Assembly: GCA_004347965.1 (NCBI GenBank)
Contig: QNVF01000003.1
Coordinates: forward strand, 1-49,261
Direction of reading: 5' to 3'
Length of the DNA: 49,261 nt
DNA from: Candidatus Nezhaarchaeota archaeon WYZ-LMO8
GTDB lineage: Archaea; Thermoproteota; Methanomethylicia; Nezhaarchaeales; WYZ-LMO8
The position numbers were made by a program, and so were the translations under genes. Under the pieces are notes generated by a model. It worked only from the letters and a program-made list of their open reading frames with translations. It ran no database searches and had not been told where the DNA came from. Within the stretch, counting starts at the first letter, position 1, and every line of letters begins with the position of its first letter. Of the stretch, positions 25,051 through 49,261 are shown piece after piece.

Positions 25051-25123
25051 TTAATCTCACCTCAAGAATGATTTGAGTTAGAAGAAGGAAGAGTAATAGA
25101 AGAGAAAATTGTAGTAAAGTACT

Positions 25124-26548: not shown

Positions 26549-26551
26549 GAT

Positions 26552-29147: not shown

Positions 29148-29167
29148 GCTAAATCACCTTAAAGAGC

Positions 29168-29710
29168 CTAGCTTTTCAGAAGCGCAATTACGTTATTTAA
29201 AGCTTGTTCCCATTCATCCTCCTTTAAGTTGGGCATTGAATAGGTTGCATTGGGATGGAAGTATCTATCAAGTGATAGCGTTCTTAGATGTGTGGCAAAG
29301 TGCTTTAGTGTTGAGAGCATCTGTGATTGTAGTTGATAAGAAACTCCCATGTAAATTACTAGGTCGTGGGGTCCCTTGCCATCAACGCTCCAATTTGGAT
29401 CCTGTAACCTATTCGTTACGTCAGCCACAGTCATTATGGCTGCTGGCTCCACGCCTCTATCCTTCAGTGCCTTGTATACATGCGCTGTGGCCACTGTCGG
29501 TATCCCAGCCTTTGCGAGTTCAGCAGCGAAGTCTATTAGCAGTTTGCCACCTAACTTTTCCTTGAGAGAAGCCCCGCCAACTATCAGCAAGGGTCGTTTG
29601 GCTGCTTTTACTAGCTTAGCGACTACGTCGCCTTTTACTGGTGTAGCCATTTCATGACCTGGAACGTTCCCCCACTGCCAAGGCTTGACGGTCATAGCCA
29701 TGAGCTTCAC
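29168..29710 (-). CDS. cdhB: ACDS epsilon subunit
   Basis: 180-aa protein encoded directly after cdhA (2-nt spacer). Size and position match CdhB, and it has a Rossmann-like PLLIVGG segment. Confidence 0.7.
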   Translation of the reverse strand: MKLMAMTVKPWQWGNVPGHEMATPVKGDVVAKLVKAAKRPLLIVGGASLKEKLGGKLLIDFAAELAKAGIPTVATAHVYKALKDRGVEPAAIMTVADVTNRLQDPNWSVDGKGPHDLVIYMGVSYQLQSQMLSTLKHFATHLRTLSLDRYFHPNATYSMPNLKEDEWEQALNNVIALLKS

Positions 29711-29712
29711 CT

Positions 29713-32073
29713 TTAGGCTTGAGCTCTAATTAACCTCTTTAACAGCGTTGGATCTATTGACGGTTTCTCCCAAGGCTCCCAGCCTACTTCTTTGAGGTAA
29801 CGCATTATTTCTTCCTTGAACGTGATGGGTATGTCTGCTTCAGTCCTCACGAAGTGGTGTAAGTCTGGTGGTAGCTTTCCATAGATCCTCTTGTAGAGAT
29901 CAACGTAGTGGGTAAGTTTAATCATCCTACCTTTAGTCGTATCGTTCGGCCTTATGCATAGCTTAGCTGTCCATACCATACACTCTTCCATGGTTTCAAG
30001 GGCTATGATCAAGTGCTCCGGAGCCGGACCTATCCAAACTCTCTCCCCCGTTCTAGCGTCATATACTGTGAACGACTCTTTATCTTCAGCTCTACCCAAG
30101 TACATCCTCCTATACTTCGAACCTTGAGGACCAACTATGACTGGAATACCTAGTCTATTACAGCCTGTGGCAATTGAAGCAGCCTTCTGCGAGTAGGCGC
30201 CCCATGCAACTCCTACTGCTCCAACTCTATTAAGTATGTAGTCCGCTATCTCCTCGTAGTTAGCTCTCAAAGGTCTTTTAGCGAATATGTTGGCTATCTT
30301 TATTGCTGCACCGGTTATGTGAGCATTTGCTACGCAAGAACCGACGTTCACTACTCCTCCTCTATCAAAGGTGCCTGGGAACTCCTCGTATATCGTCTTA
30401 CCCTCTTCATTCCTCACGTAAGAAGCAACCATTGCCGAGCAGCCTGAAAGAGTTACTATGTAGCCTCTCCTAGCGAACTCTCTCGCCATAATTCCAACTT
30501 CTTTTGCACCATTAGGGAAGTTTGCGCATCCAACGTAGGCTACAACACCTGGTATTTCACCTAAAACTATTGGTGAACCTACTTCTCTAATCTCTGTGTC
30601 AAGAATGGGGCCTCTCCCAACCCTTATCCTGTATTTCTCGGTCTTAATCTTATGTTGGAAGGCTGCTTCAATCAATGATAGAGCTGGTATCTTCCTTGGA
30701 CAAACTTGTTCACATCTAGCGCACCCAAGACAGAGATCGTGAAGCATTGAGAGCAGCTCGAAGTCTCCCTTCTTAGCGTTGAAGACTGCTTGGTCTATGG
30801 GTAGGTCTATTGGACAATTTCTTCTACAAGTACCGCAGAAGGTGCATCCTGATGCTTGAGCCTGTATTTGAGATGGATCCGGTATTATCTTGAACTTTTG
30901 CCTTATGGGTGCCATCCTTATGGCAGTTATAGCCGTGACTGCACCAGCTTTCTCAAGGTCTGGAAGAAATACGCCAGGTACTGAGCCACTGACAAGCATC
31001 TCTACGATCTTCTCTACAGGTAATTCACTTACATCCGGTAGTCCGTAGGAGGCCTTATCAGAGACTGCTACAACAGGTGTCTTCACTCGCTGAGCCTCGT
31101 AAACTACGTTAGTCCTAATGCATTGCTCGTCGGTCATTATTACATCTGCTGCTCCCGACCTTATTATCCTCAATTGATCAGATATTGGACCGATGATCTT
31201 AGCTTGATCCCTATATCTCACTATATCATGTGCTGTACAGCAGAGTCCTGCAACCTCAACCGTCTCCCCTGGCCCGCCGAGACCCGATTTTTCTAAGTAG
31301 TCGATGACCTCAATTCCAGCTGAGACGTTGTGACCTATACAGATGACCACAGGCTTACTTAGATCTAAGACGCCTAATCCAACCCAAGTTAGCGGTGCAT
31401 TGGGATCCCCCTTCGGAAAGTTGAATGTCACGATTTGAGCTACATCAGCTATCTCCATCGCCAAGTGGTCGATCATGCTGACGTGCAAGGCCTTGGACTC
31501 GAAGTCTAGGTAATTACCTTCTTGGCCGGTATGAGAAGCACTTAAACATTGTGTTACTTCCTTTTCACAATAATTGAGTAAGTAAGCTAAATCACCTAGG
31601 GTCTTCGGTTTTATCCCTGTTATCAATCTTGCATGAGGCATCTCAATTGCTATCTCTTGACCTAAGTTTATTGGATAATCTTCTCCGAACTTCTCGATTA
31701 AGTGGTCCACCATATGCCTTGCATGGGCTAAATGAGTTGATGCTCCTATGCAACATGCTATTAAAACGATTCTAGCAGTCTGAGCCTTCATGTTAATCCC
31801 GCACGCACCTAGCCTACCCTTAGATAGATCACACTTACCGTAGGTGCAGAGACAACAGTAGTCGCAGAACGGAGCATAGAAAGGCTTATACCTACTTAAC
31901 AGCATGTGGTCCCAAGACCTTAACGTTGATATGTGTGGAAACGGTGTTGGTCCAAGGAGCTCCCATTCCTCCTCCATCGCTATTCTTCCTATAAGTACCT
32001 CGATGTCCTTGGCACTTACAAGCCCGCTTGCTAACTCCTTAGCAGATATCTTTAATGGACCTTTTTCAACCAT
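29713..32073 (-). CDS. cdhA: ACDS alpha subunit (Ni-Fe carbon monoxide dehydrogenase)
   Basis: N-terminal FCDYCCLCTYGKCDL Fe-S motifs. There is an internal ferredoxin insertion, CTFCGTCRRNCP and CLGCARCEQVCP. The conserved C-cluster region GCSAM...VGSCVANAH is present. 786 aa. Confidence 0.9.
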   Translation of the reverse strand: MVEKGPLKISAKELASGLVSAKDIEVLIGRIAMEEEWELLGPTPFPHISTLRSWDHMLLSRYKPFYAPFCDYCCLCTYGKCDLSKGRLGACGINMKAQTARIVLIACCIGASTHLAHARHMVDHLIEKFGEDYPINLGQEIAIEMPHARLITGIKPKTLGDLAYLLNYCEKEVTQCLSASHTGQEGNYLDFESKALHVSMIDHLAMEIADVAQIVTFNFPKGDPNAPLTWVGLGVLDLSKPVVICIGHNVSAGIEVIDYLEKSGLGGPGETVEVAGLCCTAHDIVRYRDQAKIIGPISDQLRIIRSGAADVIMTDEQCIRTNVVYEAQRVKTPVVAVSDKASYGLPDVSELPVEKIVEMLVSGSVPGVFLPDLEKAGAVTAITAIRMAPIRQKFKIIPDPSQIQAQASGCTFCGTCRRNCPIDLPIDQAVFNAKKGDFELLSMLHDLCLGCARCEQVCPRKIPALSLIEAAFQHKIKTEKYRIRVGRGPILDTEIREVGSPIVLGEIPGVVAYVGCANFPNGAKEVGIMAREFARRGYIVTLSGCSAMVASYVRNEEGKTIYEEFPGTFDRGGVVNVGSCVANAHITGAAIKIANIFAKRPLRANYEEIADYILNRVGAVGVAWGAYSQKAASIATGCNRLGIPVIVGPQGSKYRRMYLGRAEDKESFTVYDARTGERVWIGPAPEHLIIALETMEECMVWTAKLCIRPNDTTKGRMIKLTHYVDLYKRIYGKLPPDLHHFVRTEADIPITFKEEIMRYLKEVGWEPWEKPSIDPTLLKRLIRAQA

Positions 32074-35601: not shown

Positions 35602-36924
35602 ATGAGCGAGCAACAATTCAAGATGTTCTGTTATCAGTGCGTTCAAACCGCTAAAGGTCAAGGCTGCACGGTGATGGGTATCTGCGGTAAGAACCCTACG
35701 GTCGCTCGTCTTCAAGACTTCTTGATATTTGGTGTTAAAGGGGTCTCAGCCTATCTCTACCATGCTAGAGAGCTTGGCTACTCAGATCCAGAAGTCAACT
35801 CCATTTTGGAGGAAGCAGTCTTCACCACTTTAACTAATGTGAACTTCAATGAGAAGGAGCTTTTTGAGTACTGTTTGAAGATCGGGGAAGTCAATATAAA
35901 GGCTATGAGATTGCTGAAGAAAGCTCACATAGAAACCTACGGCGAACCTGAGCCAACACTCGTTAGGACTAGTGCTGTTAAGGGTCGTGGAATCATAGTT
36001 ACTGGTCACAGCTTGAAGGCCTTAGATGAGCTATTAAAGCAAACCGAAGGTACTGGAATAAAGGTTTACACTCACTCCGAGATGTTGCCAGCACATGGAT
36101 ATCCTAAGCTTAGGAAGTATGATCACTTAGCCGGTAACCTAGGTAAGGCGTGGTACGATCAAAGACAATTGTTTGCCAAGTACCCAATGACCATATTAGC
36201 AACTACAAACTGCGCACTAATACCGATTGAAGCTTATAGGAACAGGATGTTCACGACTGGACCAGTTAGATTACCAGGTGTTAAGCACATAAGCAACTAC
36301 GACTACACGGAGGTCATTAAGAAGGCTGAGGAGCTTCCAGAGGTTCAGGAAGAAGAGGGCAAAATAGTTTTGTGGACTGGGTTCTCCAGGTCAGCTATAT
36401 TAAGCCAAGCTAAGAAGATCAAGGAGTTAGTGAATGAGGGCAAGATAAGGCGCATATTCCTCATAGGCGGTTGCGATTCACCGCTTCGAGAAATGGAGTA
36501 CTTTAGAGAGTTAGCTTTGAAGCTCCCTAGAGACACGATAATCCTCACTCTTGCTTGCGGTAAGTATAGAATAAACGATTTAGACTTGGGCACTGTGGAT
36601 GGTTTGCCGAGATTAATGGATCTTGGGCAGTGCAACGATGCCATAGTAGCTATAGACTTGCTTCCAGAATTAGCTAAGCTCTTAGACTTGGAGGTTCAAG
36701 AACTACCATTAACCATGGTATTAAGCTGGTGTGAGCAAAAGGCGGTAAGTATTCTTTTAAGCCTACTATACTTAAACGTGAAAAACATATACTTGGCTCC
36801 TAGACTTCCAGCATGGATTAATGAGGATATTCTCAAAACGTTGAAAGAACGATATGAGCTAAAGGTCGTCTCGAACCCAGAGAGTGATTTGAAAGAGATG
36901 CTGAAGAGTCAACAATCTTCCTAG
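35602..36924 (+). CDS. hcp: hybrid-cluster protein / hydroxylamine reductase (short archaeal class)
   Basis: N-terminal [23 protein letters not shown] (CX2CX8CX5C cubane motif) and downstream hybrid-cluster ligand regions (HSEM, NCA, GGCD, CGKY, GQCND). 440 aa. Confidence 0.85.
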
Positions 36925-38062: not shown

Positions 38063-38350
38063 TTAGTTTTTCTGCTTTGATTTCTCTTTCAACATCCTCT
38101 CTAGTTCGTCAGCCCTTTCAGGAGGAAGTGCCCCTAATCTTCTTAGGTTAGCTATGCACTCAGCTGCTGATTTACACCACATAATACATGACTCCGATGC
38201 CTCTCTTCTTACTGTTCTACCACACTCGGGACATTTCCTCTCAACTTCGTATTCGAAGAACTCTACTTCAGCCCCACAAACTGGACAGTAAGCGACTATT
38301 ATTTGAGGTTCAACAAGGCTTCTTGCTCCTGGACAGTATTTCAGTGCCAT
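38063..38350 (-). CDS. small zinc-ribbon / Cys-rich protein
   Basis: CPVCGAEVEF...CPECGRTV is a CxxC...CxxC ribbon, with additional Cys residues (CIMWC, C). It lies 23 nt downstream of the ferredoxin-like gene. Confidence 0.4.
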   Translation of the reverse strand: MALKYCPGARSLVEPQIIVAYCPVCGAEVEFFEYEVERKCPECGRTVRREASESCIMWCKSAAECIANLRRLGALPPERADELERMLKEKSKQKN

Positions 38351-38373: not shown

Positions 38374-39021
38374 CTAATTGGCCCTTATCCTACCATCTAT
38401 TGTCACTATTAGTTCTTCAATATTTAGCTTCTTCCCAGATCTTTCGAGCGCTTCATAAGTTATTTTAGCCAGGTTAGAACAGCATGGGACCTCCATTCTC
38501 ACGACCTTAATTGACAGCACATTGTTGTGCTTTATAATCCCCATGAGCTTGTCCCTGTAAAGACTCTTATCTCCAAATATTGGGCAACCTGATACAACGA
38601 CCTTGCCGCTAAAGTGTGGAACGAAGTTTTTGTACACGAAGGGGGCGCAGTCAGCAGCAACGACAAGCTCATGGTTGCTTATAAATGGTGCTCGCGGATT
38701 AATCAACTCAAGCTTTACTGGCCAGTTCACTATCCTTAGGTCCTTAGAAGCTTGAATTTCCACTTGAGTAATCTCATGGCGAATAGCATGTTCATTGCTT
38801 GTCTCAAAAGGTTCAGTCTCACGCTCCTCAATGGTTATGGCCCCTTTAGGGCATTCTTTAATGCACGCCCCTAAACCATCACATAGAGACTCCTTCACTA
38901 GGGTTGCCTTTCCATTAATTATTTGGAGAGCTCCCTCAGGACAAGCTGGTATGCAGGCACCACAACCATCACACTTCTCAGGGTCGATTCTAACTATCCT
39001 TCTTAGAACCTTCCTACTCAT
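38374..39021 (-). CDS. 2x[4Fe-4S] ferredoxin-domain protein with a Cys-containing C-terminal domain
   Basis: CDGCGACIPACPEGAL and CDGLGACIKECPKGAI dicluster motifs. The C-terminal domain carries AADCAP, SGCPIFGD and PCCSN. Confidence 0.7.
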   Translation of the reverse strand: MSRKVLRRIVRIDPEKCDGCGACIPACPEGALQIINGKATLVKESLCDGLGACIKECPKGAITIEERETEPFETSNEHAIRHEITQVEIQASKDLRIVNWPVKLELINPRAPFISNHELVVAADCAPFVYKNFVPHFSGKVVVSGCPIFGDKSLYRDKLMGIIKHNNVLSIKVVRMEVPCCSNLAKITYEALERSGKKLNIEELIVTIDGRIRAN

Positions 39022-39282: not shown

Positions 39283-40272
39283 TTAAGCAACTAAGTAAGT
39301 TATTACGATGGATGTCAATAGAGCTATTGCAGCCATTGGGAGAATGTACTTCCAGAATATTACGAGGGCTTGATCTATCCTCAGCCTTGCGGTCATAGCT
39401 TTGATCCACGTTAGTATTGTAACTATCACTACGTATTCAATTACCGTTATCATCATTGCTAGGTACCAGGGCAACCATGCAAAGGGCGTAAAGCCTCCAA
39501 AGAATAACATGGTTATCAGTAATGAGCCGACAACCATCTCTAAGTCGTGAAGTCCGATGATCAGAGCCAATTTGAAGCCTGAGTACTCAGTGAAGGGGCC
39601 AGCCACTATCTCCGTCTCAGCTTCAGGTATGTCAAAAGGCTTTGATAGAAGCTTGCATTGTAATGATATGAGAGCCGCTATTAAGGCGAGAGTCATTGGT
39701 ATTATGGTGTAAGGGTTAAACCAAAGTCTCCAGGCGTTGAGACAAGAGTGATAGAGTGAGTAGTTTGATGCTCCTATTGCAGTTGAGAGAATTATCGGTG
39801 TTAAGATGGAGGCAACGAACGTAACTTCGTAGGCTAGGGTCATGCTGAAAATTCTTGACGCACCCACAGCACTGAATGGGTTTGGCGTTAGCATACCTAT
39901 TAGTGCTATTGCTATCGTTGGCCAGACGAGTAAGTACATAGCTAGCATTACATCGTACTCAGCTACTATTGGTCGAAATGGCGTTATGGGCAGCATAAGG
40001 GTTAGAGCGACTAATGAGCCAATGGCTATTGAGATTAAGGTTAACGCTAGCCGTGGATGAGAGCCTTCGATTGAGACATCTTCCTTGAAGAAAAGCTTGA
40101 GGTAGTCCGCTATGGGTTGGAGGATCCCAAAGGGGCCAGTATGTAAGGGGCCTATCCTGCTTTGCATGCGTGCATAGACTTTCCTATGATACCATTGAGT
40201 TAGCCATATAACTAGGCATAGGAAGATCACGCCCGGATAAACTATCGTCTCAAATAGCAATTCATAGGGCAT
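39283..40272 (-). CDS. mbhM: MbhM / NuoH-like membrane subunit of the group-4 hydrogenase
   Basis: NuoH/HycD-family polytopic protein (RIGP...GILQP.AD..K motif: MQSRIGPLHTGPFGILQPIADYLKLFFKED). The start is taken at ATG 40272, which forms a TAATG overlap with the upstream ORF. Confidence 0.85.
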   Translation of the reverse strand: MPYELLFETIVYPGVIFLCLVIWLTQWYHRKVYARMQSRIGPLHTGPFGILQPIADYLKLFFKEDVSIEGSHPRLALTLISIAIGSLVALTLMLPITPFRPIVAEYDVMLAMYLLVWPTIAIALIGMLTPNPFSAVGASRIFSMTLAYEVTFVASILTPIILSTAIGASNYSLYHSCLNAWRLWFNPYTIIPMTLALIAALISLQCKLLSKPFDIPEAETEIVAGPFTEYSGFKLALIIGLHDLEMVVGSLLITMLFFGGFTPFAWLPWYLAMMITVIEYVVIVTILTWIKAMTARLRIDQALVIFWKYILPMAAIALLTSIVITYLVA

Positions 40273-40625
40273 TAAAGAGACACCACCATCATTGATACCA
40301 CGACAATGACGACCATAAATATGAGCATCCACATGAGCCAGTCACTTAGAATACCTGTATGTAGCCTATCCCTCAATGTATTATAAAGCGATTTGAAGAC
40401 CAATCTCCAAACTGCGGTGTACAAACCCGCATCAGGCAGACCAGTCTTAAGTGAAGATATGGATTCTCCACATGCGAATGGTTTTCGTTTCTCATTCGAT
40501 TTTTGTGTCATGGACCTCGTAAACTTTATTGAGAAAGCGTACGCAGCCAGCAATATCAATACAGTTACCGCTATAGCAAGAGAGACCTCTAATACTGCTA
40601 AGAGGAGGGAAACCACCTTATCCAC
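40272..40625 (-). CDS. MbhI / NuoA-like small membrane subunit
   Basis: 117 aa with hydrophobic helices and a KRKPFACGES loop resembling the NuoA ..PYECG.. motif. It sits between the MbhH-like and MbhM-like genes, as in Pyrococcus mbh. Confidence 0.5.
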   Translation of the reverse strand: MDKVVSLLLAVLEVSLAIAVTVLILLAAYAFSIKFTRSMTQKSNEKRKPFACGESISSLKTGLPDAGLYTAVWRLVFKSLYNTLRDRLHTGILSDWLMWMLIFMVVIVVVSMMVVSL

Positions 40626-42723: not shown

Positions 42724-43113
42724 TCACCCTTTGAGCTTAGCTATCTTCTTGACCATTGTGGTGCCGTAGAGCCTATAAATTTGGATCACTAAAAAAGCTA
42801 GAAACATGGTTATAGCCATGTTTATGACCACAGCTGTTATCACGAGACATTGAGGAACTGGATCAACAGCCGTAGAGACGAACCAGGCAATGTCTTCAAG
42901 TGTTGGTTTTAAAGTCGGTAGGACTGGTGGATATATCTCTCCAAACTTAAAGCCAAGGAATATTATTAGTGCATTAGCAGTGTCTCCAAATATCGTTAAA
43001 GCTATTAACTTCTTAATTAGCGATGCCCCTCTAACTATGCCGTAGAGCGAAATTACCATTATCACCATGAGGGCTAAGTAGCCGTAAAGCTGGAGGAAGA
43101 TTTCAAAGTTCAT
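42724..43113 (-). CDS. MrpC / NuoK / MbhG-like subunit
   Basis: 129 aa, three TM helices, and LIALTIFGDTANALII resembling the NuoK/MnhC core helix. Confidence 0.65.
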   Translation of the reverse strand: MNFEIFLQLYGYLALMVIMVISLYGIVRGASLIKKLIALTIFGDTANALIIFLGFKFGEIYPPVLPTLKPTLEDIAWFVSTAVDPVPQCLVITAVVINMAITMFLAFLVIQIYRLYGTTMVKKIAKLKG

Positions 43114-43916: not shown

Positions 43917-44173
43917 GATTCAACCTCCTCGTATCTCTCCGTCTTACTTATGATGTAAAGAAGTATCACCGTGTAAATCCCTATGGCCACAGCTATGTAC
44001 GCTAAGACTATGTCGGGGGCCATGAGGAGGAAGAAAATCAAGGCATAGGTTGCAGATTGAGCTGCTGAGAAGATCGTAGCCTTGAGCAAATCTCTACTCT
44101 TAATAGCAAGGTAGGTAAAGAGAGCTCCTATCGTGAGAGTAAAGGTTATGAGTGATGCTGCAAAGAGCGACAT
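43913..44173 (-). CDS. MbhD-like small membrane subunit (MrpA C-terminal-like)
   Basis: 86 aa, three hydrophobic helices, position between the MrpG-like and MrpB-like genes, and 4-nt/1-nt overlaps with its neighbours. Confidence 0.5.
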   Translation of the reverse strand: MSLFAASLITFTLTIGALFTYLAIKSRDLLKATIFSAAQSATYALIFFLLMAPDIVLAYIAVAIGIYTVILLYIISKTERYEEVES

Positions 44174-44556
44174 TAACTCCTCCCCTTATCCTCTTCAAGA
44201 AAGTCGCACACTTTAGGCTCAACCGGAACCCTACCTCGATGAGAGCCTCTAGCTAGTGCGTGAGAGCCTGCTGGAGCTGTGAACATTATTATTATGGCTG
44301 TGATGAACGAGCCTGAAGCAAACAACCATCTCCAATACCCCAAAAAATCACAAGCAAAAGCTATGAGTGTGAGACCAAAAAGTGGGTACACAGCTCCACC
44401 AATTACTCCAACAGTAGCAGCGTGGATGCGTACAAAGAAGTTTGGAAACCTTAGTAAGCCTAGCGCTCCAATTAAGTCGCATAACGCCCCTACGACTATT
44501 AGAGCCATTCCTATGTATAAGAATAATTGGTTTACCACTTCCCACACGCTACTCAC
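44173..44556 (-). CDS. MrpG / MbhC-like subunit
   Basis: LGLLRFPNFFVRIHAATV resembles the MnhG motif (..DFYTR.HA..). Three TM helices. Confidence 0.65.
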   Translation of the reverse strand: MSSVWEVVNQLFLYIGMALIVVGALCDLIGALGLLRFPNFFVRIHAATVGVIGGAVYPLFGLTLIAFACDFLGYWRWLFASGSFITAIIIMFTAPAGSHALARGSHRGRVPVEPKVCDFLEEDKGRS

Positions 44557-44833
44557 CTAGCTCTCTTCTTTCAAGGTACTTTGCCAAGTATACGCTGAAA
44601 ATATAGGTCCAGAGGGCAAGACAGATGGAACACACTATTAAGAAGGGTGCTTTAAAATACACGGCTAAAAGGGCCATGAAGAAGCAGACATCATAAGTTA
44701 AGCAATCGATGGCTAAAGCCATATCAGAAGGTGTTGGTCCCTTTATTATTCTTACAGTGTAGAGAGCAACGGCGACACAGAATATTGGCGTTATCGCGAT
44801 GATTAATGTCCTTACTAGTTCTTCGACTGACAA
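44549..44833 (-). CDS. MrpF / MbhB-like subunit
   Basis: RIIKGPTPSDMALAIDCL resembles the MnhF motif (GPT..DR..ALD). 94 aa, three TM helices, and first gene of the minus-strand operon. Confidence 0.6.
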   Translation of the reverse strand: MSVEELVRTLIIAITPIFCVAVALYTVRIIKGPTPSDMALAIDCLTYDVCFFMALLAVYFKAPFLIVCSICLALWTYIFSVYLAKYLERRELGE

Positions 44834-44973
44834 TATGCACCACCGAGCATCATTAGATAGCTTCTTAGTTTGCTATTAAGATTTACCCCAAAATTTATAA
44901 AAAATTTAGAGATAGTGAAGTGGTAGGATTAAGAGCATCTTAAGCCTGCTCAGTTGATTCTAAGGTGTGAGAA
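44834..44973. promoter_or_regulatory. 140-bp divergent control region between the membrane-arm and peripheral-arm operons, with a central A/T box
   Basis: AAATTTATAAAAAATTT at about 44891-44907 is a near-symmetric TATA-like element. It lies ~58 nt from the minus-strand start and ~67 nt from the plus-strand GTG start. GGTG lies upstream of the mbhJ GTG. Confidence 0.45.
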
Positions 44974-45408
44974 GTGTTAATCCAAAGAATCGCAGCATGG
45001 GCTCGACTAAGATCTCCCTGGATACTTCATATTAACACTGGAGCTTGCAATTCATGTGACATCGAAGTTCTGGCAGCGCTAACGCCTAGGTTTGACGTTG
45101 AACGTTTTGGTATCTTGCTTAAGCCATCTCCAAGGCATGCAGATGTTATTGCTATCACTGGACCAGTTACGAGACAAGCAGCTGAAAGGATAAGAAGGGT
45201 GTACGAACAAACTCCTGACCCTAAGTTCGTGATCGCAATAGGCAGCTGCGCAATAAGTGGGGGGGTCTTCCAGGATTGTTATGGTGTAATAGGAGGGGTT
45301 GATAAAGTCATACCTGTTGATGTCTACGTCCCTGGATGTCCTCCAAGACCTGATGCCATAATATACGGAGTTGTCAAGCTCGTAGAAAAGGTGAGCAAAG
45401 GTGGTTAA
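44974..45408 (+). CDS. mbhJ: [NiFe] hydrogenase small subunit, NuoB/MbhJ-like
   Basis: The four Cys ligands of the proximal [4Fe-4S] cluster are present: GACNSCDIE, GSCAISGG and PGCPPRP. GTG start. Confidence 0.85.
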   Translation: MLIQRIAAWARLRSPWILHINTGACNSCDIEVLAALTPRFDVERFGILLKPSPRHADVIAITGPVTRQAAERIRRVYEQTPDPKFVIAIGSCAISGGVFQDCYGVIGGVDKVIPVDVYVPGCPPRPDAIIYGVVKLVEKVSKGG

Positions 45409-45850
45409 TGACCACCTTGAAGTAATAGATTCTTTGGGGAATGAGCTTAAAGAAGGGCTCTTGGACGTTAGATACTTGCCTGAAAAGAGGGCTTTGTTGG
45501 TCTTGGTTGATAAGGCCTTAATCTTCAAGGCAATTGAAGCACTTAATAAGATCAGCGGGGGCGAGATGCATTTAACAACGATAAGTGGAGCTGATCTCGG
45601 TGAAGACTACATAGAGTTGACGTACTTTCTATGGCTTTTACCTCAAAGGCTTCGCGTTATCGTAAAAACTAAACTTTCTAAAGACGATTTAAGAGTTCAA
45701 AGCATAGTGAATATAGCTCCAGCAACAGTGCTTTACGAGCGTGAGGTCTATGAAATGCTTGGAGTTATTTTTGAGGGACATCCAAAACTGGAGCGGCTCT
45801 TCTTACCTGAGGATTGGCCTCAAAATATGTATCCCTTAAGGAGGAGATAA
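45401..45850 (+). CDS. mbhK: NuoC / MbhK-like subunit
   Basis: 149 aa. ERE.YEM.G..F.GHP..R.L block (YEREVYEMLGVIFEGHPKLERLFL) is typical of the NuoC/30-kDa family. Confidence 0.75.
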   Translation: MVNDHLEVIDSLGNELKEGLLDVRYLPEKRALLVLVDKALIFKAIEALNKISGGEMHLTTISGADLGEDYIELTYFLWLLPQRLRVIVKTKLSKDDLRVQSIVNIAPATVLYEREVYEMLGVIFEGHPKLERLFLPEDWPQNMYPLRRR

Positions 45851-45851
45851 T

Positions 45852-47015
45852 GTGTCAAGCATTGATCTAATCGTGGGACCAATACATCCAGCCCTCCACG
45901 AACCTGAGAGATTTGTGTTTAAAATTGATGGTGAAATAGTTGTCGATGTAGAACCGAGATTGGGTTACGTTCATAGAGGGATTGAAAAAGCATTGTCTGA
46001 GAGGACTTACATCAAGGACATATACCTGGTTGAGAGAGTGTGCGGTATATGTAACGTAGCTCACACATTGACAGCTGCTCAGGCCATTGAGCAAGCCTTC
46101 GGCGTTGAGGTACCTCGAAGATCTAAATACCTTCGTACCATAGTTCATGAGCTCAATAGATTACACAGTCACCTACTGATACTGGGGGTTGTTTGCGAGC
46201 TTATAGGATTTGACACCTTGTTCATGCTGTTTTGGAGGGACAGAGAAGTTATCATGGACCTCATTGAAATGATAACTGGCAATAGAGTTATGTCCGCCTA
46301 CAACATCATAGGTGGTGTTAGGAGAAACATAGGCGACTTTGAGGTTACCCAAATTAAGGGGGTTCTCAGTTCCCTAGCTAAGAGGGTTAAGCAATATAAG
46401 AAAGTCTTCATGGACGATCCAACTATAAGGGCTCGTTGTGCCGGTGTGGGGTATCTGAGTAGGGCCAAGGCTTTGGCCCTTGGAGCTGTAGGACCCACAG
46501 CAAGAGGTTCTGGACTTGAGTTAGATGTCCGAGTCGACGAGCCTTATGCTGCATACGATGAAGTTAAATACTGTGCAGTGATATACAACGACGGCGATGT
46601 ATGGGCTAGGCTCATGGTTAGGCTTGACGAGCTCCTTGCATCAATGGAAGTTATAAATGAGTGTCTCGACAAGATGCCCTCAGGACCCATTAGGGTACCC
46701 GTTCCTGAGGCTGCCCCTCAAAGTGCCGAGGGAGTATCAGTTATTGAAGCCCCTAGAGGGGAACTCATACATCACGTTTATACAAAGAGGGACGATGATA
46801 AGCCTTTTAGGTACAGAATTAGAACACCAACGTATGCGAACATACCAGCAGTATGTGAAATGCTCAAGGGATGCTACATAGCTGATATTCCCGCTATACT
46901 CGCTAGCATAGATCCTTGCTTCTCATGTACTGATAGAGCGGCTTTAATCGATACAAATTCTGGAGAAAAAAGAATTATAGACATACTAAGCTTAGCAAGG
47001 AGGTCTAAGAAGTGA
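45852..47015 (+). CDS. mbhL: group-4 [NiFe] hydrogenase large subunit, MbhL/NuoD-like
   Basis: Both Ni-Fe ligand pairs are intact: the N-terminal RVCGICNVAH (RxCGxCxxxH) and the C-terminal DPCFSCTDR (DPCxxCxxR). The 387-aa short form is typical of energy-converting hydrogenases. Confidence 0.9.
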   Translation: MSSIDLIVGPIHPALHEPERFVFKIDGEIVVDVEPRLGYVHRGIEKALSERTYIKDIYLVERVCGICNVAHTLTAAQAIEQAFGVEVPRRSKYLRTIVHELNRLHSHLLILGVVCELIGFDTLFMLFWRDREVIMDLIEMITGNRVMSAYNIIGGVRRNIGDFEVTQIKGVLSSLAKRVKQYKKVFMDDPTIRARCAGVGYLSRAKALALGAVGPTARGSGLELDVRVDEPYAAYDEVKYCAVIYNDGDVWARLMVRLDELLASMEVINECLDKMPSGPIRVPVPEAAPQSAEGVSVIEAPRGELIHHVYTKRDDDKPFRYRIRTPTYANIPAVCEMLKGCYIADIPAILASIDPCFSCTDRAALIDTNSGEKRIIDILSLARRSKK

Positions 47016-47350
47016 GGCTTCCTTCCTTAATAAGAGAGGTATGGGCAAACCTGTTAAAGAAACCAGCAACTGTAAAGTACCCGTTTGAAAAACTGCCCTT
47101 ATCAAAGACATATCGTGGAAAGCACGAGCTAATGAGAGATAGATGTGTAGGTTGTGGTCTTTGCGCCAAGATATGCCCTGCATTTGCCATAACCATGCGA
47201 TCAGTCTATGGTAAAGTTTCTCCTGAAGTAGACCTGGCTAAGTGCATATTCTGCTATCAATGTGAAGACGTCTGCCCAAGAGGGGCTATCAAGCGTGGTA
47301 AGGAGTATGAGCTTGCATCTTGGAGTAGAAATGAAATGATAGTAAGGTGA
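47012..47350 (+). CDS. mbhN: 2x[4Fe-4S] NuoI / MbhN-like subunit
   Basis: CVGCGLCAKICP and CIFCYQCEDVCP motifs. 4-nt overlap with mbhL. Confidence 0.8.
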   Translation: MRLPSLIREVWANLLKKPATVKYPFEKLPLSKTYRGKHELMRDRCVGCGLCAKICPAFAITMRSVYGKVSPEVDLAKCIFCYQCEDVCPRGAIKRGKEYELASWSRNEMIVR

Positions 47351-47356
47351 TCCTTC

Positions 47357-48418
47357 ATGGAAGCGTTGAGGAAAGCCGAAGAAAACTTTGTAGTCTTGAA
47401 AGCTTTTAATGACCTGGTTCTTGATGTAGTAAGCAAAGACCTGTGCACTAAGTGTGGTATGTGCGTTTCATCATGTCAAGTACATGCCATTTCCATGACT
47501 GATGAGGGGCCAAAAAGTGTTGGTCCATGTAGACAGTGCGAGGCGTGCTACTATGGATGTCCAAGAAGCCCGGCCACGTCTGAAGAGCTCCTTAAAGCCT
47601 CATTGAGCTCTGAAAAGAAGGATGATATTTTAGGAAGCTACAATAAAATTGTTAGTGCAAGAACTGTTCTTAGTGAGGTTAAGTCAGTAGCCCAGGATGG
47701 AGGCGTGGTCACCACCCTCCTCATATATGCTCTTGAAGAGGGTTTAATTGATGGTGGGATAGTTGCATCCAAGAGTACCATAGAAGCCTGGAAGCCCGTA
47801 CCAAAAGTTGCTTTAAGCATAAATGACGTGTTAGAGGCTGCAGGCACCAAGTATTCTAATTGCCCTAGCCTAGTGGCTCTTAAGGATGCTTTATATGGTT
47901 ACGATCTTAGTAAGGTTTGTGTGGTTGGAGTACCTTGCCAAGTTACTGCAGCACGAAATGTTAAGGTTCAGCCAAAAGCTGCAAGAAAAATTGGAGATAA
48001 GATAGCTTTCATAATAGGATTATTCTGCATGGAGTCATTCCCACATGTAAAACTTGCTCAGTTTCTCACATCAAATGGAATAGATATAGCTAAAGTATCG
48101 AAGTTTGACATAAAGGAGGGTAAATTCAGGGTCTACATGGGCGATGCTGAGGTACTAAGTGTCCCAATAAGGAACTTAAAAGATTATGCCAATCGCTTCT
48201 GTGAGACGTGCAGAGACTTAACGTCGTGGTACGCTGATGTATCGGTAGGAGCTATAGGCTCTGGAAGAGATTGGTCAACGGTGATAGTTAGAAGCGATGA
48301 AGGCGCTAAGCTATTTGATGGCGCTGTCCAGAACGGATATCTCGAAGTCAAGGATATTGAAAGTGATGGAATTGAAAGTCTAAGAAAGATAGCTAAAAGA
48401 AAGGCTTCAAAGAATTAA
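47357..48418 (+). CDS. FpoF/FrhB-family protein (N-terminal 2x[4Fe-4S] domain + coenzyme F420 hydrogenase/dehydrogenase beta-subunit-like domain)
   Basis: CTKCGMCVSSCQ and CRQCEACYYGCP form the ferredoxin domain. FrhB/FdhB-like blocks follow: LGSY...SAR....VKSVAQDGGVVTTLLIYALEEGLIDG and VVGVPCQVTAARN (GxPCQ). The ATG lies 6 nt after the mbhN stop, with AAGGTGA as a ribosome-binding site. Confidence 0.75.
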   Translation: MEALRKAEENFVVLKAFNDLVLDVVSKDLCTKCGMCVSSCQVHAISMTDEGPKSVGPCRQCEACYYGCPRSPATSEELLKASLSSEKKDDILGSYNKIVSARTVLSEVKSVAQDGGVVTTLLIYALEEGLIDGGIVASKSTIEAWKPVPKVALSINDVLEAAGTKYSNCPSLVALKDALYGYDLSKVCVVGVPCQVTAARNVKVQPKAARKIGDKIAFIIGLFCMESFPHVKLAQFLTSNGIDIAKVSKFDIKEGKFRVYMGDAEVLSVPIRNLKDYANRFCETCRDLTSWYADVSVGAIGSGRDWSTVIVRSDEGAKLFDGAVQNGYLEVKDIESDGIESLRKIAKRKASKN

Positions 48419-48658: not shown

Positions 48659-49261
48659 ATGCAAGGTAACAGGAACGTGAGGTTAGATGACTCCAGCAAG
48701 GTGAGGATCAGGTATCCGTACGACAAGTCGTGGCTCAGCTTCAGAGCAAGATTCGGAGAAAATTATGTACCGCTCGTCAAGGAGCTATCAGAGCTTGCTA
48801 AATCGAGGAAGTGTAGCTACGGTGTAAGAATCGTCTTCAGAAATGGTAGAATCTACCTCCACCTATCTGTGCCCGTAGAGCTCTACCTAAAGTACTTCAG
48901 GAAGGGTGAGGCCAAAGGGGACCTGATAGCCGGCTTCGACCTAAACAGCGATAGGATAAACATGGTGATAGTGGATAAGTACGGAAGAGTAGTGGATGTG
49001 AGGACAGCTTGGTTCCCCGAGGTAACATCACCTGTTTACCCGAGAAGCAAAGCTAGGGTCGTTAGGCTTCAAGCTCTAGTAAAGCTACTCAACTACGCAT
49101 ACCACCACGGTGCTAGTGTAGTCGTGTTCGAAGACCTTGACAAGATCAAGCGGAGAAGATTCACCAGTTCACCCACAGCCAACAGGAAGATAGCCAGATT
49201 CGCAAAGAAACAACTACTAACTCACGCAGTAGTCATGAGCCTGAGATACGGGTTAAAACCC
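48659..49261 (+). CDS. tnpB: TnpB / IS605 OrfB-like RuvC-fold protein, 3'-truncated by the window edge
   Basis: This ORF is absent from the supplied track because it has no stop in the window. Frame 2 is open from 48599, and the ATG at 48659 follows GAGGAGGAGG. It has the beta-strand pair VRIVFRNGRIYLHLSVP, RuvC-I IAGFDLNSDRINMVIVD (Asp94), and RuvC-II ASVVVFEDLDKIK (Glu158). The tail NRKIARFAKKQLLTHAVVMSLRYG is typical of TnpB. Confidence 0.65.
   Translation, partial: MQGNRNVRLDDSSKVRIRYPYDKSWLSFRARFGENYVPLVKELSELAKSRKCSYGVRIVFRNGRIYLHLSVPVELYLKYFRKGEAKGDLIAGFDLNSDRINMVIVDKYGRVVDVRTAWFPEVTSPVYPRSKARVVRLQALVKLLNYAYHHGASVVVFEDLDKIKRRRFTSSPTANRKIARFAKKQLLTHAVVMSLRYGLKP

What the first reader, a model, noticed from the sequence alone, without database searches (positions are those of the whole stretch)
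47357..48418. FpoF/FrhB-like flavo-FeS subunit translationally coupled to a bona fide Mrp-linked [NiFe] hydrogenase
The peripheral-arm operon mbhJ-K-L-N is followed 6 nt later by a gene encoding an N-terminal 2x[4Fe-4S] domain plus FrhB/FdhB-type domains. That is the architecture of FpoF/FqoF, the F420H2-oxidising input module of the Fpo/Fqo complexes. Fpo/Fqo have lost the Ni-Fe site, but the large subunit here keeps both CxxC ligand pairs (RVCGICNVAH, DPCFSCTDR). Classical Mbh has 14 subunits and takes electrons from free ferredoxin through MbhN, with no FrhB-like partner. The arrangement therefore predicts a chimeric complex: an ion-translocating hydrogenase with an Fpo-style two-electron cofactor module. 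It could run in either direction, from F420H2 or a related deazaflavin/flavin substrate to H2, or from H2 to F420. This would be a mechanistic intermediate between Mbh and Fpo/complex I. I am not aware of a biochemically characterised example, but I cannot search the literature from here.
Basis: partly seen in the sequence, partly recalled or inferred. Interest (0 to 1): 0.8.

Follow-up and report, generated by a model that had tools for sequence, protein, structure and literature searches.

The report
F420 module on membrane-bound hydrogenase
An archaeon of the hot-spring Nezhaarchaeales lineage encodes an ion-pumping nickel-iron hydrogenase with an extra F420-handling flavoprotein gene at the end of the operon. 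This probably links hydrogen to the methanogen cofactor F420, but the same arrangement was described as an untested hypothesis in a 2025 paper.

Summary
Window 47357-48418 encodes a 353-aa protein with an N-terminal 2x[4Fe-4S] domain and FrhB_FdhB_N/C domains. It starts 6 nt after mbhN, behind a Shine-Dalgarno site that overlaps the mbhN stop codon. The mbhJKLN genes keep both Ni-Fe CxxC pairs, and a complete nine-gene Mrp/Mbh membrane arm is transcribed divergently.

The protein keeps the FAD-site motifs of true FrhB. Its model superposes over its full length on the F420-reductase subunit of an archaeal CO dehydrogenase (8RIU_B, TM 0.90). That subunit is a proven plug-in module that makes a ferredoxin enzyme F420-dependent.

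The mbhN-frhB adjacency recurs in four other Nezhaarchaeales genomes. It is absent from one syntenic relative, from a paralogous Nezhaarchaeales cluster and from the nearest outgroups.

The most likely function is an F420H2:H+ (or H2:F420) oxidoreductase built on an Mbh/Mrp chassis. Kohtz et al. (Sci Adv 2025, PMC12700198) already describe this frhB-flanked "Ehi" hydrogenase in cultured Methanonezhaarchaeia and interpret it the same way, with transcript evidence only. No biochemistry exists.

I rate the finding as already known and of moderate interest. In passing, I found that many Bathyarchaeia Fpo-like hydrogenase clusters also end in an FrhB-family gene.

The parts
47357..48418 (+). FrhB-like flavo-iron-sulfur subunit. 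N-terminal 2x[4Fe-4S] ferredoxin domain (about residues 24-71), then an FrhB-type FAD/[4Fe-4S] F420-oxidoreductase domain (about residues 90-350).
   Evidence: Pfam and NCBIfam. FAD-site motifs QDGG, AAGTKY and GLFCMESF match solved FrhB. AF2 model pLDDT 92.3. Foldseek best hit 8RIU_B, TM 0.90.
47345..47356 (+). mbhN-frhB junction. The Shine-Dalgarno-like GGTGATC overlaps the mbhN TGA stop, followed by a 6-nt gap.
   Evidence: Sequence. GGTGA at the mbhN stop and gaps of 6, 6, 7 and 15 nt are conserved in the window, L001, L003 and L090.
47012..47350 (+). mbhN (NuoI/TYKY-like 2x[4Fe-4S] subunit), the presumed docking and electron-entry point.
   Evidence: Pfam and NCBIfam. PDB hits 7Z0S_F, 6U8Y_N and 6CFW_N.
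45852..47015 (+). mbhL, the [NiFe] large subunit. Both CxxC pairs are intact and there is a 25-aa C-terminal extension after DPCFSCTDR.
   Evidence: 6CFW_L at 302 bits. L1 and L2 motifs.
45401..45850 (+). mbhK (NuoC-like)
   Evidence: Pfam Complex1_30kDa
44974..45408 (+). mbhJ (NuoB-like small subunit carrying the proximal [4Fe-4S] cluster)
   Evidence: Pfam Oxidored_q6 and NCBIfam NuoB
44834..44973 (.). Divergent intergenic region with an archaeal TATA-like box (TTTATAAAAAA), shared by the peripheral-arm and membrane-arm operons.
   Evidence: Sequence. Promoter function is inferred only.
44549..44833 (-). mrpF-like (MbhB)
   Evidence: ORF. Homologue annotated PF04066 in L001.
44173..44556 (-). 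mrpG-like (MbhC)
   Evidence: PF03334
43913..44173 (-). mbhD-like
   Evidence: PF13244
43110..43916 (-). mnhB-like (corresponds to MbhE/F)
   Evidence: PDB 6U8Y_E and 6CFW_F.
42724..43113 (-). mrpC/nuoK-like (MbhG)
   Evidence: PF00420
42210..42719 (-). mnhE-like (MbhA)
   Evidence: PF01899
40618..42213 (-). mrpD-like antiporter subunit (MbhH)
   Evidence: Pfam Proton_antipo_M and NCBIfam
40272..40625 (-). mbhI-like small membrane subunit
   Evidence: Weak PDB hit 6CFW_I, E = 0.003. Position is conserved in L001, L003, L089 and L090.
39283..40332 (-). mbhM (NuoH-like). The true start is probably about 20 codons downstream of the listed GTG, because the homologues are 328-332 aa.
   Evidence: Pfam NADHdh..

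Best explanation
The gene encodes a dedicated F420-reactive input/output subunit of an Mbh/Mrp-type, ion-translocating [NiFe] hydrogenase. This is the frhB-flanked 'Ehi' complex of Methanonezhaarchaeia.

Proposed electron path (inferred): F420H2 gives a hydride to the FAD of the FrhB domain. Single electrons then pass through the FrhB [4Fe-4S] cluster, the two clusters of its N-terminal ferredoxin domain, the two clusters of MbhN and the proximal cluster of MbhJ, and reach the Ni-Fe site of MbhL. There protons are reduced to H2. This redox chemistry is coupled to ion movement through the MbhM/Mrp membrane arm. The N-terminal ferredoxin domain acts as both anchor and wire, as it does in the ACDS-zeta and FwdI F420 reductases.

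Direction: the reaction is close to equilibrium (from textbook potentials, F420 is about -340 to -360 mV and H+/H2 is -414 mV). It should therefore run towards H2 only when H2 is kept low, for example by an uptake hydrogenase linked to heterodisulfide reduction (intracellular H2 cycling). It could run in reverse to make F420H2 from H2.

Shown: the gene order, the domain, cofactor-ligand and motif content, the predicted fold, and the conservation of the adjacency.
Inferred: physical docking, F420 as the substrate, ion coupling and direction.
For: 1. Architecture and cofactor sites. The protein has Fer4 plus FrhB_N plus FrhB_C domains. Eight Cys of the ferredoxin domain and four Cys of the FrhB cluster (C194, C224, C282, C285) are invariant or nearly invariant in 42 homologues. 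The FAD-site loops QDGG, AAGTKY and GLFCMESF match solved FrhB.

2. Similarity. It is 43% identical to M. marburgensis FrhB and passes the NCBIfam FrhB subfamily cut-off. The AF2 model (pLDDT 92.3) matches the F420-reductase subunits 8RIU_B and 8RJA_E over its full length (TM 0.90 and 0.85). Those subunits were shown biochemically to make CODH and Fwd reduce F420 (PMC11493965).

3. Operon linkage. The gap is 6 nt and the SD lies inside the end of mbhN. This junction is conserved in L001, L002, L003 and L090.

4. Specific association. The Mbh-linked FrhB proteins form one clade, distinct from a stand-alone paralogue in the same genomes. The paralogous Nezhaarchaeales Mbh cluster (L087) and the nearest outgroups (L008, L088) lack the gene.

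5. Independent recurrence. FrhB-family genes are also attached to Bathyarchaeia Fpo-like [NiFe] hydrogenase operons: 9 of 23 loci that had enough downstream sequence to judge.

6. The hydrogenase is real and complete. The L1 and L2 motifs are intact, MbhL is closest to P. furiosus MbhL, and all Mbh subunit types are present.

7. Literature. In cultured strain YNP3N the frhB-flanked group 4 hydrogenase is expressed, F420 biosynthesis is encoded, and the authors identified no genes other than frhB for recycling F420 (PMC12700198).
Against: - There is no biochemical or structural evidence that the protein binds the Mbh complex. Multimer docking could not be run.
- The window has no F420 biosynthesis or F420-dependent genes, so F420 use by this organism rests on a relative's published genome.
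- The syntenic locus L089 has the same hydrogenase without frhB, so the hydrogenase works without the module and MbhN may still accept ferredoxin.
- FpoF and FqoF homologues have been proposed to act as soluble ferredoxin:F420 oxidoreductases (and my own recall).
- A Thermococcus FrhAGB reduces rubredoxin rather than F420 (abstract of PMC13333549). FrhB-fold proteins are therefore not always F420-specific.
- If proton reduction at the Ni-Fe site drives outward pumping as in Mbh, F420H2-driven H2 evolution is favourable only at very low H2. The reverse direction would consume ion gradient.
Confidence: 0.6

Rival explanations
1. The protein is a soluble, free-standing ferredoxin:F420 oxidoreductase. 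Its ferredoxin domain accepts electrons from free ferredoxin and its FAD reduces F420, or the reverse. The gene sits on the mbh operon only for co-regulation, because both enzymes manage the same ferredoxin/H2/F420 redox pool.
For: Close homologues (44-47% identity) with the same architecture are stand-alone genes in unrelated neighbourhoods. The hydrogenase exists without the gene at the syntenic locus L089. Soluble FqoF/FpoF-type Fd:F420 oxidoreductase activity has been proposed in the literature (Methanosarcina FpoF from my own recall).
Against: The conserved 6-15 nt junction with the SD inside mbhN suggests co-translation in matched amounts. The linked genes form their own clade, distinct from the stand-alone paralogue in the same genomes. 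In the only solved examples of this architecture, the N-terminal ferredoxin domain is a docking anchor on a partner enzyme. FrhB-family genes were recruited independently to hydrogenase operons in Bathyarchaeia.
Confidence: 0.2
2. The protein is bound to the hydrogenase but its FAD site serves a substrate other than F420, such as rubredoxin, another flavin or deazaflavin, or NAD(P).
For: FrhAGB of Thermococcus onnurineus reduces rubredoxin (abstract of PMC13333549). The FrhB fold also occurs in ferredoxin-dependent HCAR. F420 biosynthesis cannot be checked in this window.
Against: The FAD and substrate-channel motifs are identical to those of true F420-reducing FrhB. All close characterised relatives use F420, and HCAR scores only 42 bits against 218 for FrhB. 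The window encodes an archaeal CODH/ACS (cdhABCDE). From general knowledge this implies a methanopterin-type Wood-Ljungdahl pathway, whose Mtd and Mer steps use F420. The cultured relative encodes F420 biosynthesis.
Confidence: 0.08
3. The protein docks on a different enzyme, for example the CODH/ACS encoded about 15 kb upstream in the window or the formylmethanofuran dehydrogenase. This would match its structural twins ACDS-zeta and FwdI. On this reading its position after mbhN is incidental.
For: The best structural matches are exactly those subunits (8RIU_B and 8RJA_E). The window carries cdhABCDE at 25124-32073.
Against: The gene is never next to cdh in the Nezhaarchaeales loci examined, and lies directly after mbhN in every Nezhaarchaeales locus that carries it. 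Identity to ACDS-zeta is only 35%. The protein lacks the C-terminal dimerisation extension described for zeta: it is 353 aa against 370.
Confidence: 0.07

Closest known systems
frhB-flanked 'Ehi' group 4 [NiFe] hydrogenase of Methanonezhaarchaeia (Ca. Methanonezhaarchaeum fastidiosum YNP3N; Sci Adv 2025, PMC12700198)
   Same: Same lineage: the closest homologues are all Nezhaarchaeota/Nezhaarchaeales MAGs. [quoted passage not shown]
   Different: I could not compare sequences directly with YNP3N because no supplement is held. The paper gives no biochemistry. It also names the FrhB-linked complex inconsistently: Ehi-1 in one section and Ehi-2 in another.
ACDS zeta subunit and FwdI, the F420-reductase add-on modules of Ca. 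Ethanoperedens thermophilum (PDB 8RIU_B, 8RJA_E; PMC11493965)
   Same: Identical domain plan: N-terminal 2x[4Fe-4S] ferredoxin domain, then an FrhB-type FAD/[4Fe-4S] domain. They are the best full-length structural matches (TM 0.90 and 0.85). They give biochemical proof that such a module makes a ferredoxin-type enzyme F420-dependent.
   Different: Their host enzymes are soluble CODH and Fwd, not a membrane hydrogenase. Sequence identity is only 30-35%. The 20-residue C-terminal dimerisation tail of zeta is absent here.
FpoF/FqoF, the F420H2-oxidising input subunit of F420H2 dehydrogenases (Fpo, Fqo)
   Same: Same architecture: the FpoF model aligns end to end, including the Fe-S domain. Same logical role as a two-electron cofactor module on a complex-I-like, NuoI/NuoB-containing chassis.
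   Different: The score is 176.6 bits against a cut-off of 475, so it is not an FpoF orthologue. By established knowledge, Fpo and Fqo have lost the Ni-Fe ligands and reduce methanophenazine or quinone. Here the Ni-Fe site is intact and the membrane arm is Mrp/Mbh-type. No Fpo structure turned up in the PDB searches.
FrhB of the soluble F420-reducing [NiFe] hydrogenase FrhABG (group 3a; PDB 4OMF, 4CI0, 6QGR, 9R51)
   Same: The catalytic domain is most similar to FrhB: 218 bits, 43% identity, TM about 0.9 on the target, and identical FAD-site motifs. The overall chemistry, H2 <-> F420, is the same.
   Different: FrhB has no N-terminal ferredoxin domain. In Frh that role is played by FrhG. Frh is cytoplasmic and not coupled to ions, and its large subunit is group 3, not group 4.
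Pyrococcus furiosus Mbh (group 4d; PDB 6CFW) and the modular Thermococcales relatives
   Same: MbhL is closest to 6CFW_L at 302 bits. All 14 Mbh subunit types have counterparts (with MbhE/F fused in one gene), and the Mrp module is present.
   Different: The genes are split into two divergent operons, and there is an extra FrhB-like subunit. Classical Mbh takes electrons from free ferredoxin at MbhN. From my own recall, Thermococcales variants add formate dehydrogenase or CODH modules, not an F420 module.
Bathyarchaeia Hfo (Fpo-like 11-subunit group 4g [NiFe] hydrogenase; PMC7886697)
   Same: It is a group 4 hydrogenase with intact Ni-Fe motifs. In my survey it often carries an FrhB-family gene at the operon end.
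   Different: Its membrane arm is Nuo/Fpo-type with three antiporter-like subunits, not Mrp-type. Most linked FrhB genes there are fused to tandem CBS domains and have a diverged FAD motif. The paper states that Hfo lacks FpoFO.

Membership tests
FrhB/FdhB/FpoF flavo-iron-sulfur family (Pfam PF04422 + PF04432) | Both FrhB_FdhB_N and FrhB_FdhB_C domains score above the gathering thresholds | tested here: met
   76.8 bits (cut-off 22) and 147.4 bits (cut-off 23.3)
FrhB/FdhB/FpoF flavo-iron-sulfur family (Pfam PF04422 + PF04432) | FAD-binding loops (QDGG, G-T-K-Y loop, xCMExF loop) and four Cys ligands of the [4Fe-4S] cluster | tested here: met
   AQDGGVVT, AAGTKY and GLFCMESF match M. marburgensis FrhB. 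C194, C224, C282 and C285 are invariant in 42 homologues.
FrhB/FdhB/FpoF flavo-iron-sulfur family (Pfam PF04422 + PF04432) | Catalyses F420 reduction or F420H2 oxidation | not testable with these tools
   Needs an enzyme assay. Only similarity to F420 enzymes is available.
FrhB proper (subunit of FrhABG) | Passes the curated FrhB models | tested here: inconclusive
   Subfamily NF006807 scores 291.7, above its cut-off of 269. Equivalog TIGR03289 scores 272.3, below its cut-off of 331.5.
FrhB proper (subunit of FrhABG) | Encoded with frhA and frhG (group 3a hydrogenase) and lacks an N-terminal ferredoxin domain | tested here: not met
   The neighbours are group 4 mbhJKLN. The protein has an extra 2x[4Fe-4S] domain of about 90 residues.
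FpoF/FqoF (F420H2 dehydrogenase subunit F) | Passes the NCBIfam FpoF models | tested here: not met
   NF040616 scores 176.6 against a cut-off of 475. NF006808 scores 176.6 against 444.
FpoF/FqoF (F420H2 dehydrogenase subunit F) | N-terminal 2x[4Fe-4S] domain fused to the FrhB-type domain | tested here: met
   Eight Cys in two CxxCxxCxxxC(P) motifs. The FpoF model aligns from residue 21 to 353.
FpoF/FqoF (F420H2 dehydrogenase subunit F) | The partner complex has a NuoD/FpoD subunit without Ni-Fe ligands and reduces methanophenazine or quinone | tested here: not met
   MbhL keeps both CxxC pairs (L1 CGICNVAH, L2 DPCFSCTDR).
Mrp-linked membrane-bound [NiFe] hydrogenase (Mbh type, HydDB group 4d/4g) | Large subunit has L1 and L2 Ni-Fe motifs and is most similar to group 4 enzymes | tested here: met
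   6CFW_L scores 302 bits and HycE 273 bits. Complex I NuoD hits align only residues 1 to about 300.
Mrp-linked membrane-bound [NiFe] hydrogenase (Mbh type, HydDB group 4d/4g) | Full subunit set: J, K, L, N, M, I, H and the Mrp-derived A-G equivalents | tested here: met
   13 genes cover all 14 Mbh subunit types, with MbhE/F fused in one MnhB-like gene.
Mrp-linked membrane-bound [NiFe] hydrogenase (Mbh type, HydDB group 4d/4g) | Formal HydDB subgroup assignment (4d or 4g) | not testable with these tools
   HydDB is not available. Published trees place Nezhaarchaeia, Desulfurococcales and Bathyarchaeia relatives in or near 4g.
frhB-flanked 'Ehi' complex of Methanonezhaarchaeia (PMC12700198) | A group 4 [NiFe] hydrogenase gene cluster flanked by frhB in a Nezhaarchaeia genome | tested here: met
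   The window's proteins are 61-89% identical to Nezhaarchaeota/Nezhaarchaeales MAG proteins. The arrangement is identical in L001, L002, L003 and L090.
frhB-flanked 'Ehi' complex of Methanonezhaarchaeia (PMC12700198) | Orthology to the YNP3N locus named Ehi in the paper | not tested
   No YNP3N sequence or supplement is held.

The most novel reading that the evidence does not exclude
FrhB-type F420 modules have been attached repeatedly and independently to energy-converting group 4 [NiFe] hydrogenases in Thermoproteota. One recruitment is on the Mrp/Mbh-type enzyme of Nezhaarchaeales. At least two more are on the Fpo-like 'Hfo' hydrogenase of Bathyarchaeia, one of them as a CBS-domain fusion that may be nucleotide-regulated.

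If these are real subunits, 'F420-coupled ion-translocating hydrogenases' form an unrecognised functional class. Hfo, published as lacking an FpoF module, would then be a true Fpo look-alike with a live Ni-Fe site.
Probability: 0.35. Interest if true: 0.7.

Novelty: already known. Interest (0 to 1): 0.45.

Why it matters
If the complex works as predicted, it replaces the soluble Frh hydrogenase with an ion-coupled one. F420H2 oxidation or H2-dependent F420 reduction would then be linked to the membrane potential. This would change the energy budget calculated for the newly cultured Thermoproteota methanogens.

It would also be a living functional analogue of the step from ferredoxin-dependent hydrogenases to cofactor-dependent complex-I-type enzymes such as Fpo.

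A cultured host now exists (strain YNP3N), so the prediction can be tested directly. The natural presence/absence polymorphism (L089 against L090) and the parallel Bathyarchaeia cases offer comparative handles.

Tried and rejected
- F420 biosynthesis or F420-dependent genes in the window: none found. The radical-SAM ORFs are NifB-like, Elp3 and an unassigned Fer2-fused protein, not CofG/H.
- Supplementary tables of PMC12700198, to match gene IDs or MAG accessions: none held.
- Earlier mention of the arrangement in other Nezhaarchaeia papers: none found.
- Differences in MbhN between FrhB-linked and FrhB-less clusters that might mark a docking surface: nothing decisive.
- Bacterial-type promoter and terminator scan: counts were no higher than in shuffled sequence, and the models do not apply to archaea.
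- Chance adjacency, rejected: the junction is conserved in four other genomes and the module recurs independently in Bathyarchaeia.
- FpoF orthology, rejected: scores are far below the curated cut-offs.
- 'Evolutionary intermediate between Mbh and Fpo', rejected: the module is restricted to a shallow clade and absent from syntenic and outgroup loci.
Full report
**1. Observation**

The + strand from 44974 to 48418 carries five tightly packed ORFs:

- mbhJ, 44974-45408
- mbhK, 45401-45850
- mbhL, 45852-47015
- mbhN, 47012-47350
- a 353-aa ORF, 47357-48418

The last ORF starts 6 nt after the mbhN stop. The sequence aaGGTGATCcttcATG puts a strong Shine-Dalgarno match across the mbhN TGA.

Pfam assigns Oxidored_q6, Complex1_30kDa, Complex1_49kDa plus NiFeSe_Hases, and Fer4 to the first four genes. 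The fifth gets Fer4 (residues 24-71), FrhB_FdhB_N (99-176, 77 bits) and FrhB_FdhB_C (185-336, 147 bits).

MbhL contains RVCGICNVAH and DPCFSCTDR, followed by a 25-residue tail. By general knowledge, such a tail is what protease-processed [NiFe] large-subunit precursors carry. Its best solved relative is P. furiosus MbhL (6CFW_L, 302 bits), ahead of E. coli HycE and all complex I NuoD subunits.

A nine-gene membrane arm is transcribed divergently from a 140-bp intergenic region that contains a TTTATAAAAAA box. It encodes MrpF, MrpG, MbhD, MnhB, MrpC, MnhE, MrpD, MbhI and MbhM.

**2. What the ORF is**

NCBIfam scores:

| Model | Score (bits) | Cut-off | Result |
|---|---|---|---|
| FrhB subfamily NF006807 | 291.7 | 269 | above |
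| FrhB equivalog TIGR03289 | 272.3 | 331.5 | below |
| FpoF NF040616 | 176.6 | 475 | far below, though it aligns end to end |

The catalytic domain is therefore FrhB-like, while the architecture (ferredoxin domain plus FrhB domain) is FpoF-like.

PDB sequence hits, in order:

- true FrhB, 218 bits; 43% identity
- the 370-aa and 359-aa 'FrhB-like' chains of 8RIU and 8RJA, 195 and 175 bits, full-length alignments
- Fsr, 150 bits
- FdhB, 49-60 bits
- the ferredoxin-dependent HCAR, 42 bits

The FAD-site loops described for FrhB are the 24-QDGG stretch, the G73-T77 loop and the I132-F138 loop that includes the cluster ligand Cys134 (PMC3930138). All three are conserved here as AQDGGVVT, AAGTKY and GLFCMESF. 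In a 42-sequence alignment, the eight ferredoxin-domain Cys and the four FrhB-cluster Cys are invariant or nearly so.

An AlphaFold2 model built on that alignment is confident (pLDDT 92.3, pTM 0.91). Its best full-length structural match is 8RIU_B (TM 0.90/0.86, rmsd 2.5 Å over 346 columns), then 8RJA_E, then the FrhB chains and Fsr.

**3. Biochemical precedent**

8RIU_B and 8RJA_E are the zeta subunit of the CODH/ACDS and the FwdI subunit of formylmethanofuran dehydrogenase from Ca. Ethanoperedens thermophilum. Lemaire et al. (PMC11493965) showed three things:

- The module has a ferredoxin domain (residues 1-83, two [4Fe-4S] clusters) and an F420-reductase domain (FAD plus one [4Fe-4S] cluster).
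- It anchors to the host enzyme through its N-terminal domain.
- It makes normally ferredoxin-dependent enzymes reduce F420.

This is direct evidence that this protein type acts as a plug-in F420 adaptor.

**4. Conservation of the adjacency**

The closest homologues of both the FrhB-like protein (61-80% identity) and MbhL (69-89%) are Nezhaarchaeota/Nezhaarchaeales MAG proteins. Four other genomes have the same divergent Mrp arm, mbhJKLN and a directly following frhB-like gene:

- L001, GCA_026414405
- L002, GCA_025059375
- L003, GCA_038734475
- L090, GCA_038887515

The gaps are 6, 6, 7 and 15 nt, and GGTGA sits at the mbhN stop in each. L003 carries a second, tandem copy behind a 344-bp AT-rich spacer.

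The association is specific:

- L089 (GCA_030055465, MbhL 69% identical) is syntenic on both sides but has no frhB. There mbhN is followed directly by the convergent class I aminoacyl-tRNA synthetase gene that flanks frhB in the other genomes.
- A paralogous Nezhaarchaeales Mbh cluster lacks it (L087, 62%; mbhN is followed by btpA).
- The nearest outgroups lack it (L088 Thermoprotei and L008 Methanomethylicia, both 63%).
- Homologues of the FrhB-like protein at 44-47% identity are stand-alone genes. One of them is a paralogue on the same contig as L002.

In a rough neighbour-joining tree, the Mbh-linked proteins form one clade that is sister to that stand-alone Nezhaarchaeales paralogue.

**5. 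Wider survey**

I fetched 80 genome loci that encode MbhL relatives. I scanned them with an HMM of the FrhB-like family and with the window's own subunits.

Among Bathyarchaeia clusters of the Fpo-like 'Hfo' type, 9 of the 23 loci with enough downstream sequence have an FrhB-family gene directly after the last antiporter gene, on the same strand. The Hfo layout is mbhJ, K/L, nuoH-like, nuoI-like and three antiporter-like genes. Others have an FrhB-family gene just upstream, or convergent right after mbhN (L047, L064, L057). All these large subunits keep the L1 motif, and all but L057 also matched the L2 pattern.

Two kinds of linked gene occur:

- A roughly 360-aa form with QDGG and AAGTKY intact (L030, L057).
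- A roughly 510-aa form with two C-terminal CBS domains and a diverged FAD motif (L014 and others).

These lie apart from the Nezhaarchaeales clade in the tree, so recruitment to hydrogenase operons happened more than once. Loh et al. (PMC7886697) described Hfo as lacking FpoFO and treated FrhB as an orphan. I found no paper that notes this adjacency.

**6. Mechanism**

The best-supported reading is an F420H2:H+ oxidoreductase (reversible) on an Mbh/Mrp chassis. The proposed path is:

F420H2 -> FAD -> FrhB [4Fe-4S] -> two clusters of the ferredoxin domain -> two clusters of MbhN -> MbhJ cluster -> Ni-Fe site

Ion translocation would occur in the MbhM/Mrp arm.

The parts list, the cofactor ligands and motifs, the predicted fold and the operon linkage are shown. 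Docking, substrate, coupling and direction are inferred.

From textbook potentials (F420 about -340 to -360 mV; H+/H2 -414 mV), H2 evolution from F420H2 is mildly uphill under standard conditions. It needs H2 to be kept low. This fits the intracellular H2-cycling scheme that Kohtz et al. propose, in which another hydrogenase (Ehg, linked to Hdr) re-oxidises the H2.

By microscopic reversibility, if proton reduction drives outward pumping as in Mbh, then H2-dependent F420 reduction would draw on the ion gradient. This is an inference worth testing.

The rival readings are a soluble Fd:F420 oxidoreductase that is merely co-expressed, a non-F420 substrate, and docking on ACDS or Fwd. They are set out with their evidence in the rival explanations. 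Their main support is that stand-alone homologues exist, that the hydrogenase exists without the module (L089), and that a Thermococcus FrhAGB uses rubredoxin.

**7. Comparison with the literature**

[quoted passage not shown] They add that the strain encodes F420 biosynthesis and that they found no genes other than frhB for recycling F420. They also report that the FrhB-associated Ehi complex is conserved across the nine species clusters of the family. The complex is called Ehi-2 in that later passage, which is an inconsistency in the paper.

It rests on genomics and a single transcriptome. No paper found here reports purification, activity or structure.

**8. Verdict**

Two corrections apply:

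- The protein is FrhB-like in sequence and FpoF-like only in architecture.
- It is a late, clade-restricted add-on, so the complex is a convergent analogue of Fpo rather than an evolutionary intermediate.

Novelty is 'already known'. Interest is moderate (0.45): the enzyme is uncharacterised, mechanistically informative and now experimentally accessible, but it would no longer surprise a specialist. The parallel FrhB linkage in Bathyarchaeia Hfo clusters appears not to have been described.

Noticed in passing
L013, L014, L022, L024, L030, L032, L033, L038, L043 (FrhB-family ORF starting within about 100 nt of the end of the last antiporter-like gene, e.g. L014:18312-19868, L030:18522-19598); also L047, L064, L057: Bathyarchaeia Fpo-like 'Hfo' group 4 [NiFe] hydrogenase operons often end in an FrhB-family gene: 9 of the 23 loci with enough downstream sequence. 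Most are fusions of Fer4, FrhB_N, FrhB_C and two CBS domains with a diverged FAD motif (HSGG or KSGG instead of QDGG). L030 and L057 keep QDGG and AAGTKY. The paper that defined Hfo says it lacks an FpoF module.
   Followed up: partly
L089:11161-11716 compared with L090:9647-11050: There is a natural presence/absence polymorphism. Nezhaarchaeota MAG GCA_030055465 has the same Mbh/Mrp cluster and the same flanking genes (class I aminoacyl-tRNA synthetase, TldD/PmbA) but no frhB-like gene after mbhN.
   Followed up: partly
L003:8598-9656 and L003:10001-11050: In GCA_038734475 there are two tandem frhB-like genes after mbhN. The second lies behind a 344-bp AT-rich spacer, so it probably has its own promoter.
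   Followed up: no
window 38374-39021 (-) and 38063-38350 (-): A 215-aa protein (2x[4Fe-4S] plus an AF_0155 domain) lies beside mbhM in every Nezhaarchaeales locus examined, in variable orientation. Its 95-aa zinc-ribbon partner is seen beside it where the fetched locus extends far enough (window, L001, L002, and a 100-aa gene in L089). The zinc-ribbon protein also has a 106-bit homologue about 1.1 kb from the frhB-like gene in Bathyarchaeia locus L057 (13848-14201). These may be a further electron-transfer or maturation partner.
   Followed up: partly
window 24271-32073 (-): A complete archaeal CODH/acetyl-CoA synthase operon: cdhA 29713-32073, cdhB 29168-29710, cdhC 27720-29147, and two CdhD-family genes (presumably cdhD and cdhE) at 26552-27748 and 25124-26548. 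A CooC/MinD-like ATPase follows at 24271-25050. This implies a Wood-Ljungdahl pathway in this organism.
   Followed up: partly
window 48659-49261 (+): A partial ORF runs off the window end, with no Pfam or NCBIfam hit. From reading the sequence it looks like the N-terminal part of an archaeal OrfB/TnpB-type transposase (my guess only). It occupies the position where the other Nezhaarchaeales loci have a class I aminoacyl-tRNA synthetase gene, so there is a local rearrangement downstream of frhB.
   Followed up: partly
window 46938-47015 (C-terminus of MbhL): MbhL extends 25 residues beyond the DPCFSCTDR motif, as expected for a precursor cleaved by a hydrogenase maturation protease. No hyp or protease gene was found among the window ORFs that were annotated.
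   Followed up: no
window 16995-17939 (-) and 495-1415 (-): There is an AIR-synthase-related protein whose best match is 'methanogenesis marker 2' (243 bits, below the cut-off of 365), and a NifB-like radical-SAM protein (280 bits, below the cut-off of 344). Both hint at a methanogen-type background without proving it.
   Followed up: no
window 6799-15750: A DNA-repair block: an Mre11-like phosphoesterase, a Rad50-like ATPase, NurA and HerA (6799-12926, +), then Bax1/DUF790 and the XPB helicase (12923-15750, -). Two DUF22 paralogues lie at 3715-4173 and 23825-24265, and a hybrid-cluster protein at 35602-36924.
   Followed up: no
PMC12700198, main text: [quoted passage not shown] This inconsistency could confuse later annotation.
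   Followed up: no
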